DNA of 64,000 bases, from assembly GCF_045037415.1 (NCBI RefSeq), contig NZ_CP173438.1; one strand, given 5' to 3'. Every line of letters begins with the position of its first letter. The first letter of the stretch is position 1. Positions 58,001-61,000 of the stretch are shown here, in pieces. The position numbers are program-made. Source of the DNA: Escherichia coli. Its GTDB lineage: Bacteria > Pseudomonadota > Gammaproteobacteria > Enterobacterales > Enterobacteriaceae.

Positions 58001-61000
58001 TCCGACGTGACGGTTAATGGCAATCTGACCAATACGTCCGGTGCTGTCAGTCTGCAAAATGGCATCGCTGGCGACACGCTGACGGTAAATGGTGATTATA
58101 CCGGCGGCGGTACGCTACTGCTCGACAGCGAATTAAACGGCGATGACTCGGCAAGCGACCAGTTGGTGTTGAACGGTAATACTGCTGGCAATACCACGGT
58201 TGTGATTAATCCCATTACAGGGATTGGTGAGCCGACATCTACAGGTATTAAAGTGGTTGATTTCGCAGCTGATCCCACGCAGTTTCAAAACAATGCGCAG
58301 TTCAGTCTGGCAGGAAGCGGCTACGTCAATATGGGGGCGTATGACTACACGCTGGTGGAAGATAACAACGACTGGTATCTGCGATCACAAGAAGTCAATC
58401 CGACGCCGCCGCCTGATCCAGACCCGACTCCAGATCCTGATCCCACGCCGGATCCCGACCCAACCCCCGACCCTGAACCTACGCCTGCTTACCAGCCGGT
58501 GTTGAATGCCAAAGTTGGTGGATATTTTAATAACCTACGTGCGGCAAATCAGGCATTTGTGATGGAGCGACGCGATCACGCAGGTGGCGATGGTCAGACG
58601 CTGAATTTACGCGTTATCGGCGGGCGTTATCATTACACGGCGGCAGGGCAGTTGGCTCAGCATGAAGACACTTCTACGGTGCAGCTTAGCGGCAACCTGT
58701 TTAGCGGGCACTGGGGTGATGATGGCGAGTGGATGCTTGGGATTGTTGGTGGCTACAGCGATAACCAGGGCGACAGCCGCTCGAATATGACCGGAACTCG
58801 CGCCGATAACCAGAACCGCGGTTATGCCGTTGGGCTGACCTCAAGCTGGTATCAGCACGGTAATCAGAAGCAGGGGGCCTGGTTGGATAGCTGGCTGCAA
58901 TATGCGTGGTTTAACAATGATGTTTCCGAACAAGACGATGGAGTGGATCATTACCACTCGTCGGGGATTATCGCCTCGCTGGAAGCCGGTTATCAGTGGT
59001 TACCGGGGCGTGGTGTGGTGATTGAACCGCAGGCGCAGGTGATTTATCAGGGCGTGCAGCAGGATGATTTTACCGCCGCTAACCATGCGCGCGTGTCACA
59101 ATCGCAGGGTGATGATATTCAGATGCGGTTGGGTTTACACAGCGAATGGCGTACTGCTGTTGGTGTCACGCCAACGTTAGATCTGAATTATTATCACGAT
59201 CCCCATGCGACGGAAATTGAAGAGGATGGCAGCACTATCAGTGACGATGCGGTGAAGCAACGGGGTGAAATAAAAGTGGGAATAACGGGCAATATCAGTC
59301 AGCGAGTTTCGCTGCGCGGCAGCGTGGCGTGGCAGAAAGGGAGTGATGATTTTGCCCAGATGGCAGGGTTTTTGTCGATGACAGTGAAATGGTAATCGCT
59401 GTCTGACCGGCACTGTTGCCGGATGCGGCGTAAACGCCTTATCTGGCCTACGGGGAGCATTTGTAGGCCTGATAAGACGCGGCAAGCGTCGCATCAGGCT
59501 TGGCGCGGTTGCCGGATGAATCCAAACAACAACCTCACTTATTCTGCGTATGCAGCATATAGTTCACATCCACGCCGGGGCCGAGCTTAAAGGTGTTAGT
59601 GATAGGGTTGTAATGCAGCCCGGTCATATGCCGTTCTTTAAGACTGGTCTGATCCACCCAGCCCAGCAATTCTGCCGGTTTAATAAACTTCTTCACATCA
59701 TGTGTACCTTTAGGCACCATGCGCAAAATATATTCAGCACCAACCACCGCCATCAGCCATGACTTGCCGTTGCGGTTAAGCGTCGAGAAAAAGACATCGC
59801 CGCCCGGTTTCACCAGTTGCGCACAGGCTCTGACCACTGACTGAGGATCGGGGACGTGCTCCAGCATCTCCATACAGGTCACCACGTCATACTGTCCGGC
59901 ATGTTTTGCCGCGTGCTCTTCCACGGTTTCCTGCACGTAATCCACCTGAATGCCGCTTTCCAGTGCGTGCAGTTTTGCCACCTGCAATGGCTCAAAGCCC
60001 ATATCCAGACCGGTCACCGTCGCGCCCTCCCGCGCCATACTCTCGGCCAGAATGCCGCCGCCACAACCGACATCGAGCACCTTTTTGCCAAATAAACCGC
60101 CAGCACGCTCGGCAATATAGCCCAGACGCAGCGGGTTAATGCGGTGCAGCGGTTTGAACTCACCTTCAAGATCCCACCAGCGGGAGGCGACGGCTTCAAA
60201 TTTAGCGATCTCTTCGTGGTCTACGTTGTGGTTTACCGGCGATTTTTCGGCATTCATTGGCACTTCTACTCCGTAATTGGCAAGACAAACGAGTATATCA
60301 GGCATTGGATGTGAATAAAGCGTATAGGTTTACCTCAAACTGCGCGGCTGTGTTATAATTTGCGACCTTTGAATCCGGGATACAGTAGAGGGATAGCGGT
60401 TAGATGAGCGACCTTGCGAGAGAAATTACACCGGTCAACATTGAGGAAGAGCTGAAGAGCTCCTATCTGGATTATGCGATGTCGGTCATTGTTGGCCGTG
60501 CGCTGCCAGATGTCCGAGATGGCCTGAAGCCGGTACACCGTCGCGTACTTTACGCCATGAACGTACTAGGCAATGACTGGAACAAAGCCTATAAAAAATC
60601 TGCCCGTGTCGTTGGTGACGTAATCGGTAAATACCATCCCCATGGTGACTTGGCGGTTTATAACACGATCGTCCGTATGGCGCAGCCATTCTCGCTGCGT
60701 TACATGCTGGTAGACGGTCAGGGTAACTTCGGTTCCATCGACGGCGACTCTGCGGCGGCAATGCGTTATACGGAAATCCGTCTGGCGAAAATTGCCCATG
60801 AACTGATGGCCGATCTCGAAAAAGAGACGGTCGATTTCGTTGATAACTATGACGGCACGGAAAAAATTCCGGACGTCATGCCAACCAAAATTCCTAACCT
60901 GCTGGTGAACGGTTCTTCCGGTATCGCCGTAGGTATGGCAACCAACATTCCGCCGCACAACCTGACGGAAGTCATCAACGGTTGTCTGGCGTATATCGAT

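What the first reader, a model, noticed from the sequence alone, without database searches (positions are those of the whole stretch)
60650..60664. gyrA carries the classic quinolone-resistance double substitution S83L + D87N
Codon 83 reads TTG (Leu) and codon 87 reads AAC (Asn) in the motif [13 protein letters not shown], where wild-type E. coli GyrA has Ser83 (TCG) and Asp87 (GAC). This pair in the QRDR is the canonical high-level fluoroquinolone-resistance genotype, so the sequence very likely comes from a fluoroquinolone-resistant isolate. No other QRDR residue (67-106) differs from the wild-type sequence I remember.
Basis: partly seen in the sequence, partly recalled or inferred. Interest (0 to 1): 0.85.

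Follow-up and report, generated by a model that had tools for sequence, protein, structure and literature searches.

The report
Known fluoroquinolone-resistance gyrA allele, ST131
The gyrase gene in this window does carry the two textbook point mutations (Ser83Leu, Asp87Asn) that stop fluoroquinolone antibiotics from poisoning the enzyme, and it is base-for-base the well-described allele of the pandemic E. coli ST131 clade C, so the finding is correct and clinically meaningful but not new.

Summary
Observation confirmed. gyrA is at window 60404..63031 (+). Codon 83 (60650-60652) is TTG (Leu) and codon 87 (60662-60664) is AAC (Asn). Against K-12 gyrA there are 70 base differences, of which only three change the protein: S83L, D87N and A828S. 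No other QRDR residue (67-106) differs.

The whole 64-kb window matches E. coli ST131 clade C2 strain EC958 at 63,999 of 64,000 bases. The gyrA gene is 100% identical to EC958, JJ1886 and many other ST131 clade C genomes; this is the published "gyrA1AB" allele. The quinolone-susceptible-type allele of ST131 clade B strain S21EC differs at exactly these two bases and nowhere else. They are therefore two selected point mutations on the native allele, not lineage polymorphism or assembly error.

The same codon pair occurs in at least 1,701 of 5,426 complete E. coli genomes (31%).

Published mechanism: Ser83 and Asp87 anchor the water-metal-ion bridge to the quinolone, and the double-mutant enzyme is essentially insensitive to ciprofloxacin.

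In isogenic strains the gyrA pair alone gives a ciprofloxacin MIC of only 0.38 µg/ml; 32 µg/ml needs parC S80I as well. parC lies outside the window but is mutated in EC958 and in 39 of 40 listed genomes with this gyrA.

Verdict: already known, low novelty.

The parts
60404..63031 (+). gyrA coding sequence (875 codons plus stop), DNA gyrase subunit A. The allele is identical to that of ST131 clade C (published name gyrA1AB).
   Evidence: ORF and translation. NCBIfam TIGR01063 equivalog, 1306 bits against a cut-off of 877. 100% identical over 2,628 bases to EC958, JJ1886, JJ1887 and others.
60602..60721 (+). Quinolone-resistance-determining region, codons 67-106.
   Evidence: Identical to K-12 apart from residues 83 and 87.
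60650..60652 (+). Codon 83, TTG (Leu). Wild type is TCG (Ser); the mutated base is 60651 (C>T).
   Evidence: It is also one of only two differences from the ST131 clade B strain S21EC.
60662..60664 (+). Codon 87, AAC (Asn). Wild type is GAC (Asp); the mutated base is 60662 (G>A).
60767..60769 (+). Codon 122, the catalytic tyrosine (preceded by Arg121). It is intact, so the enzyme keeps its DNA-cleavage centre.
   Evidence: residues 119-125 read AMRYTEI.
62081..62101 (+). GyrA box QRRGGKG (residues 560-566) in the C-terminal DNA-wrapping domain, intact.
62885..62887 (+). Codon 828, TCG (Ser), against GCG (Ala) in K-12. This is a lineage background polymorphism, not a resistance mutation.
   Evidence: It is also present in the wild-type-QRDR strain S21EC, since that allele differs from the window only at codons 83 and 87. 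It is listed for EC958 in PMC4398462.
60258..60403 (.). Divergent ubiG-gyrA intergenic region (gyrA promoter and leader), unchanged.
   Evidence: 146 of 146 bases identical to K-12, so there is no sign of a regulatory change accompanying the coding mutations.

Best explanation
This is the chromosomal gyrA gene of an E. coli ST131 clade C (H30-R/Rx) strain. It carries two selected point mutations, C248T (Ser83Leu) and G259A (Asp87Asn), on the lineage's native allele. Ser83 and Asp87 lie next to the DNA-cleavage site and anchor, through water molecules, the Mg2+ ion chelated by the quinolone keto-acid. Replacing both removes this bridge, and the bulky Leu also clashes sterically. The drug can then no longer be positioned to stabilise the gyrase-DNA cleavage complex, so gyrase stops being a lethal target. 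The enzyme keeps its catalytic Tyr122 and its normal activity, with little or no fitness cost. In the cell this moves the limiting target to topoisomerase IV. Clinical high-level resistance appears when parC is mutated too, as it is in this lineage. What is shown here: the mutations, their exclusivity relative to the clade B allele, the lineage identity, and the co-occurrence with mutant parC in genomes that carry the same gyrA. What is taken from the literature: the bridge mechanism, the enzyme insensitivity and the MICs. What is inferred: the phenotype of the particular isolate the window came from.
For: The mutations are read directly from the sequence. gyrA identity rests on the equivalog model, on Tyr122 and the GyrA box, and on ubiG-gyrA-yfaA synteny. 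The window differs from EC958 at 1 of 64,000 bases, and gyrA is 100% identical to many ST131 clade C genomes. The gyrA of clade B strain S21EC differs at exactly these two bases, with no synonymous differences (clade assignment from PMC8764528). The same two mutant codons occur on two synonymous backgrounds, GTT85 in 1,370 genomes and GTC85 in 331 genomes, out of 5,426, which indicates repeated independent selection. In PMC9917921, purified GyrA S83L/D87N gyrase shows essentially no ciprofloxacin-induced cleavage up to 500 uM, Ser83 and Asp87 are identified as bridge anchors, and a metal-independent quinazolinedione still works. In PMC2714960, isogenic ciprofloxacin MICs are 0.016 (wild type), 0.38 (S83L), 0.25 (D87N), 0.38 (both) and 32 (both plus parC S80I), and the triple mutant has fitness of about 1.0. 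PMC4398462 gives EC958 the same three GyrA substitutions and a ciprofloxacin MIC of >=32. PMC4850260 states that clade C is characterised by gyrA1AB and parC1aAB. EC958 parC was read here as S80I + E84V and parE as I529L. Of the 40 listed genomes with identical gyrA, 39 also carry the ST131 parC S80I/E84V 43-mer.
Against: Nothing in the data contradicts it. There are three limits. parC, parE, efflux regulators and plasmid genes lie outside the window, so the level of resistance of this particular isolate is inferred, not shown. One genome with identical gyrA (Ecol_743) lacks the exact ST131 parC 43-mer, so linkage is strong but not absolute. No reads are available for a direct check of base calls.
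Confidence: 0.97

Rival explanations
1. The two differences are neutral lineage polymorphisms of phylogroup B2/ST131 with no bearing on drug resistance.
For: The allele differs from K-12 at 70 positions, so it is clearly a different lineage background. One amino-acid difference, A828S, does behave as a lineage polymorphism.
Against: The 67 synonymous differences and A828S are shared with ST131 clade B strain S21EC, which has Ser83 and Asp87. Only the two resistance codons differ. The same codon pair recurs on a different synonymous background. Biochemistry and isogenic MICs show a functional effect.
Confidence: 0.01
2. Positions 60651 and 60662 are sequencing or assembly errors.
For: None. The only point in its favour is that no reads are available to check.
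Against: The full gene is identical in at least 40 listed independent complete assemblies. The 41-mer holding both mutant bases is exact in 1,370 genomes. Two random errors landing on exactly the two classical resistance bases is vanishingly unlikely: by hand estimate, of the order of 1e-7 given about 7,900 possible single-base changes in the gene.
Confidence: 0.005
3. The resistant QRDR was imported by homologous recombination from another resistant E. coli lineage, rather than arising by two stepwise point mutations in ST131.
For: The double mutant is very common in other lineages, so donors exist. Recombination of gyrA and parC has been proposed for other clones (own knowledge, for example ST1193; not checked here).
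Against: Outside the two bases, the gene and its 644-base downstream flank are identical to the clade B allele, and the 869 bases upstream differ at one base. An imported tract would therefore have to be very short, or come from a donor with an identical backbone. The literature describes clade C as acquiring gyrA1AB within the lineage (PMC4850260).
Confidence: 0.02
4. The gyrA double substitution is sufficient on its own for high-level, clinical fluoroquinolone resistance. This is the literal reading of the first reader's phrase.
For: Purified double-mutant gyrase is essentially insensitive to ciprofloxacin. The genotype is strongly associated with high MICs in clinical isolates: 18 of 30 resistant UTI isolates carried the pair (PMC2714960).
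Against: Isogenic MG1655 gyrA S83L+D87N has a ciprofloxacin MIC of 0.38 ug/ml, equal to S83L alone. Adding parC S80I raises it to 32 ug/ml. Once gyrase is protected, topoisomerase IV becomes the sensitive target.
Confidence: 0.03

Closest known systems
gyrA of E. coli O25b:H4-ST131 clade C2 strain EC958 (WP_001281226.1), published allele name gyrA1AB
   Same: 100% identical over all 2,628 bases, with the same three substitutions relative to K-12 (S83L, D87N, A828S; PMC4398462). The surrounding 64 kb is identical apart from one synonymous base in nuoE.
   Different: Nothing within gyrA. The window cannot be assigned to EC958 itself, because many clade C genomes are equally or more identical.
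gyrA of ST131 clade B strain S21EC (WP_001281247.1), the quinolone-susceptible-type ancestral allele
   Same: The same backbone: all 67 synonymous differences from K-12 and A828S are shared, and the flanks are the same.
   Different: It has TCG (Ser) at codon 83 and GAC (Asp) at codon 87. These two bases are the only differences. S21EC also has an IS1397 insertion between yfaL and ubiG that the window lacks.
Wild-type K-12 MG1655 gyrA (NP_416734.1) and its isogenic S83L/D87N derivatives (Marcusson et al. 2009, PMC2714960)
   Same: The same gene, length, synteny and identical promoter region. The engineered LM625 strain carries the same two amino-acid substitutions.
   Different: 70 base differences and A828S in the backbone. 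The K-12 derivatives were built without parC changes and have a ciprofloxacin MIC of 0.38 ug/ml.
parC S80I/E84V of topoisomerase IV (ST131 allele parC1aAB)
   Same: The homologous serine and acidic residues of the paralogous enzyme, the same water-metal-ion bridge logic, and co-selection in the same lineage.
   Different: A different gene, about 0.9 Mb away in EC958 and not in this window. On its own it gives no MIC change.

Membership tests
DNA gyrase subunit A (GyrA; NCBIfam TIGR01063 equivalog) | Full-length match to the equivalog profile above its curated cut-off, and better than the ParC models | tested here: met
   TIGR01063 scores 1306 bits (cut-off 877) over residues 8-840. The Gram-negative ParC model scores 576.6 bits, below its cut-off of 628.9.
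DNA gyrase subunit A (GyrA; NCBIfam TIGR01063 equivalog) | Catalytic Tyr122 (with Arg121) of the DNA breakage-reunion domain | tested here: met
   residues 119-125 read AMRYTEI.
DNA gyrase subunit A (GyrA; NCBIfam TIGR01063 equivalog) | GyrA box (QRRGGKG) in the C-terminal domain, which distinguishes gyrase from topoisomerase IV | tested here: met
   QRRGGKG at residues 560-566.
DNA gyrase subunit A (GyrA; NCBIfam TIGR01063 equivalog) | E. coli chromosomal context ubiG <> gyrA > yfaA | tested here: met
   the same neighbours as in K-12 and EC958.
Target-mediated quinolone resistance allele gyrA S83L + D87N | Leu at residue 83 through TCG>TTG | tested here: met
   (window 60651, C>T).
Target-mediated quinolone resistance allele gyrA S83L + D87N | Asn at residue 87 through GAC>AAC | tested here: met
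   (window 60662, G>A).
Target-mediated quinolone resistance allele gyrA S83L + D87N | Raised quinolone MIC of the carrying isolate, or drug-insensitive enzyme | not testable with these tools
   Only literature evidence for the same allele is available: EC958 has a ciprofloxacin MIC of >=32, the isogenic pair gives 0.38 ug/ml, and the purified double mutant is insensitive.
E. coli ST131 clade C (H30-R/Rx) | gyrA1AB allele (ST131 gyrA backbone plus S83L and D87N) | tested here: met
   100% identity to EC958, JJ1886, JJ1887; backbone equals the clade B allele; definition in PMC4850260.
E. coli ST131 clade C (H30-R/Rx) | parC1aAB allele (S80I, E84V) | not testable with these tools
   parC is outside the window. 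It was read in EC958. It is present in 39 of the 40 listed genomes with identical gyrA.
E. coli ST131 clade C (H30-R/Rx) | fimH30 allele and the seven MLST loci of ST131 | not testable with these tools
   None of these loci lies in the window (gene list). Lineage assignment rests on the 63,999/64,000 identity to EC958.

The most novel reading that the evidence does not exclude
The most novel reading not excluded is that the source isolate carries this gyrA pair without the usual parC/parE changes, or that the pair together with the lineage A828S background alters supercoiling and gene expression in a way that contributes to ST131's epidemiological success beyond drug resistance. Nothing in the window points to either. 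Both ideas are already discussed in the field.
Probability: 0.03. Interest if true: 0.3.

Novelty: already known. Interest (0 to 1): 0.08.

Why it matters
The finding is useful for annotation and surveillance. It identifies the window as chromosome from the pandemic fluoroquinolone-resistant E. coli ST131 clade C. It predicts nalidixic acid resistance and at least reduced ciprofloxacin susceptibility, and very probably high-level resistance, given the lineage's parC and parE alleles. It opens no new biological question: the allele, its mechanism, its fitness neutrality and its evolutionary history are all published, and about a third of complete E. coli genomes in RefSeq carry the same codon pair.

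Tried and rejected
1. A parC 43-mer built on the K-12 background with S80I written as ATC and E84V as GTA found no genome. Reading EC958 parC directly showed that ST131 uses ATT for Ile80, and the corrected 43-mer matched 371 genomes.
2. An attempt to fetch the clade A strain SE15 as a wild-type comparator failed because the requested range was one base over the limit. The clade B strain S21EC, found through the wild-type 41-mer search, served instead.
3. One script failed because locus L003 was stored in another file. It was rerun successfully.
4. Neutral polymorphism, assembly error and recombinational import were considered and rejected or down-weighted on the evidence.
5. I did not count S83L-only or D87N-only genomes, or wild-type genomes on the GTC85 background. 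The 31% figure is therefore a lower bound for the double mutant, not a full genotype census.
6. No structure prediction or remote homology search was run. The protein is 99.7% identical to an enzyme with many solved structures, so these would add nothing.

Full report
**Observation.** The ORF at 60404..63031 on the + strand encodes an 875-residue protein. It matches the NCBIfam GyrA equivalog model TIGR01063 at 1306 bits against a curated cut-off of 877, while the Gram-negative ParC model stays below its own cut-off. The protein has the catalytic Arg121-Tyr122 pair and the GyrA box QRRGGKG at residues 560-566. It sits between ubiG and yfaA, as in K-12 and EC958. Counting from the ATG, codon 83 is 60650-60652 (TTG, Leu) and codon 87 is 60662-60664 (AAC, Asn).

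**Comparison with wild type.** Against K-12 MG1655 gyrA, fetched as locus L001, there are 70 base differences in 2,628. Sixty-seven are synonymous. The three that change the protein are S83L (C248T, window 60651), D87N (G259A, window 60662) and A828S (G2482T, window 62885). Residues 67-106 otherwise equal K-12. The 146-base ubiG-gyrA intergenic region is identical to K-12, so no regulatory change accompanies the coding changes.

**Where the window comes from.** The gyrA sequence is 100% identical to that of EC958, JJ1886, JJ1887, several records named O25b:H4-ST131, and many others. The last 25 kb and the first 25 kb of the window are each 100% identical to dozens of such genomes.
- Laid against EC958 (NZ_HG941718.1, 2596952..2532953, reverse strand), the whole window differs at one base in 64,000. 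That base is window 2038, a synonymous Leu40 codon in nuoE.
- EC958 is the outlier there, because other ST131 genomes match the window at that position.
- The window runs from nuoB through the nuo, men, arn, rhm, glp and nrd genes, then yfaL, ubiG and gyrA, to the start of yfaA.
- It is therefore a piece of ST131 clade C chromosome. The exact strain cannot be determined.

**Are the two changes selected mutations?** A search with the wild-type version of the 41-mer found, among others, strain S21EC, which is an ST131 clade B isolate (PMC8764528). Its gyrA differs from the window's at exactly two bases, 60651 and 60662, and at no synonymous site. The downstream 644 bases are identical, and the upstream 869 bases differ at one position.
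- The 67 synonymous differences from K-12, and A828S, are therefore lineage background.
- S83L and D87N are the only changes on the branch from the clade B-type allele.
- Two changes, both non-synonymous and both at the two classical resistance codons, are not what drift or sequencing error would give.
- The same pair of mutant codons also occurs on a different synonymous background. The exact 41-mer with GTT at codon 85 is in 1,370 of 5,426 complete E. coli genomes, and the version with GTC at codon 85 is in 331 more. At least 1,701 genomes (31%) carry the pair, which points to repeated independent selection.

**Mechanism (from the literature, for the same substitutions in the same enzyme).**
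- Carter et al. 2023 (PMC9917921) purified E. coli gyrase with GyrA S83L, D87N, or both. The single mutants reach only about half the wild-type ciprofloxacin-induced cleavage even at 500 uM. The double mutant shows essentially none.
- In the same study, a metal-independent quinazolinedione still poisons all the mutant enzymes. Metal-substitution and Mg2+ titration experiments support Ser83 and Asp87 as the anchors of a water-metal-ion bridge to the quinolone.
- Competition experiments there indicate that the bridge positions the drug rather than providing most of the binding energy. S83A is not resistant, so steric hindrance from Leu contributes.
- Marcusson et al. 2009 (PMC2714960) measured isogenic MG1655 derivatives. 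Ciprofloxacin MICs were 0.016 (wild type), 0.38 (S83L), 0.25 (D87N), 0.38 (S83L+D87N) and 32 ug/ml (S83L+D87N+parC S80I). The triple mutant had a fitness of 1.01.
- The gyrA pair therefore makes gyrase refractory at no measurable cost. The cellular MIC is then capped by topoisomerase IV until parC is mutated.

The claim that the source is very likely a fluoroquinolone-resistant isolate holds. It holds because of the lineage as much as because of gyrA alone.
- EC958 has the same three GyrA substitutions, parC S80I and E84V, and MICs of >=32 ug/ml for ciprofloxacin and >=256 ug/ml for nalidixic acid. These phenotypes were not transferred with its plasmid (PMC4398462).
- Clade C is characterised by gyrA1AB and parC1aAB, acquired before the C1/C2 split in the 1980s (PMC4850260).
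- I read EC958 parC directly. It has S80I (ATT), E84V (GTA), A192V, A471G, D475E and Q481H, and parE has Leu at residue 529.
- The ST131 parC 43-mer is in 371 genomes. That list includes 39 of the 40 genomes listed as having identical gyrA. The exception is Ecol_743.
- parC itself is outside the window, so for this isolate the parC genotype remains an inference.

**Rivals.**
- Neutral lineage polymorphism is excluded by the S21EC comparison.
- Assembly error is excluded by the number of independent identical assemblies.
- Recombinational import of the QRDR is not formally excluded. It would need a very short tract or a donor with an identical backbone, and it is not what the ST131 literature describes.
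- The idea that the gyrA pair alone gives high-level resistance is contradicted by the isogenic data.

**Comparison with what is known, and novelty.** This is not merely similar to a known allele; it is that allele, base for base. The protein is covered by many solved E. coli GyrA structures. Everything about it has been published: occurrence, mechanism, fitness, and its place in the evolution of ST131. The finding is a correct and practically useful annotation of a resistance marker and a lineage marker. Its scientific novelty is nil.

**Verdict.** Observation confirmed. Interpretation supported, with the caveat about parC. Already known. Interest 0.08.

Noticed in passing
window 1-64000: The whole window matches ST131 clade C2 strain EC958 (NZ_HG941718.1, 2596952..2532953, reverse strand) at all but one base. 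The gene order is nuoB-N, yfbKLM, rbn, elaAB, menFDHBCE, pmrD, arnFETDACB, ais, nudI, yfaZYX, rhmD, yfaVU, rpnE, glpCBA, glpTQ, inaA, yfaE, nrdBA, yfaL, ubiG, gyrA, yfaA.
   Followed up: yes
window 2038: The single difference from EC958 is G here against A in EC958, a synonymous Leu40 codon (CTG against CTA) in nuoE (window 1919-2419). Many other ST131 genomes match the window at 100% over 1-25000, so the A looks private to EC958.
   Followed up: partly
window 62885-62887: A third GyrA substitution relative to K-12, A828S, lies in the acidic C-terminal tail region. It is shared with the wild-type-QRDR clade B strain S21EC, so it is lineage background rather than a resistance change.
   Followed up: yes
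window 59396-59534 (yfaL-ubiG intergenic); locus L004 398-1746: ST131 clade B strain S21EC has an IS1397 (IS3-family) insertion between yfaL and ubiG that is absent from the window. One further base differs in ubiG (window 60099, G against A in S21EC).
   Followed up: no
window 42092-43321: Between glpC and yfaU, EC958 is annotated with rpnE (called an 'ISNCY family transposase' in the record; window about 42326-43321, minus strand). It abuts a 234-base N-terminally truncated pseudogene (about 42092-42325).
   Followed up: no
window 39001-64000, compared with NZ_CP145139.1 (hit H41): Strain CAVp367 matches this stretch in two pieces that span 27.5 kb instead of 25 kb, and an ISEc23 (IS66-family) transposase is annotated under the match. 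That strain therefore has an IS insertion somewhere in the region which the window lacks.
   Followed up: no
window 26000-34000 (arnBCADTEF, pmrD) and 46803-48161 (glpT): Loci relevant to other resistances are present: the arn operon and pmrD for polymyxin, and glpT for fosfomycin uptake. All are identical to EC958, which is reported fosfomycin-susceptible (MIC 0.5 ug/ml, PMC4398462). There is no sign of inactivation.
   Followed up: partly
outside the window: E. coli genome collection: In each of four searches, one record labelled 'plasmid' carried the query: gyrA (the double-mutant allele), the nuo-men region, or ST131-type parC. This is most likely a chromosome or chromosome fragment mislabelled as a plasmid. 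The record was not identified.
   Followed up: no
outside the window: NZ_CM135829.1 (hit H139): A 4.83-Mb record named 'DH5alpha' carries the wild-type Ser83/Asp87 41-mer with GTT at codon 85, which is not the K-12 synonymous background. Genuine DH5alpha is a K-12 derivative with gyrA96 (own knowledge). The record name is probably wrong.
   Followed up: no
outside the window: NZ_CP015069.1 (Ecol_743): This genome has a gyrA 100% identical to the window's but is absent from the list of genomes with the exact ST131 parC S80I/E84V 43-mer. It may carry a variant parC QRDR.
   Followed up: no
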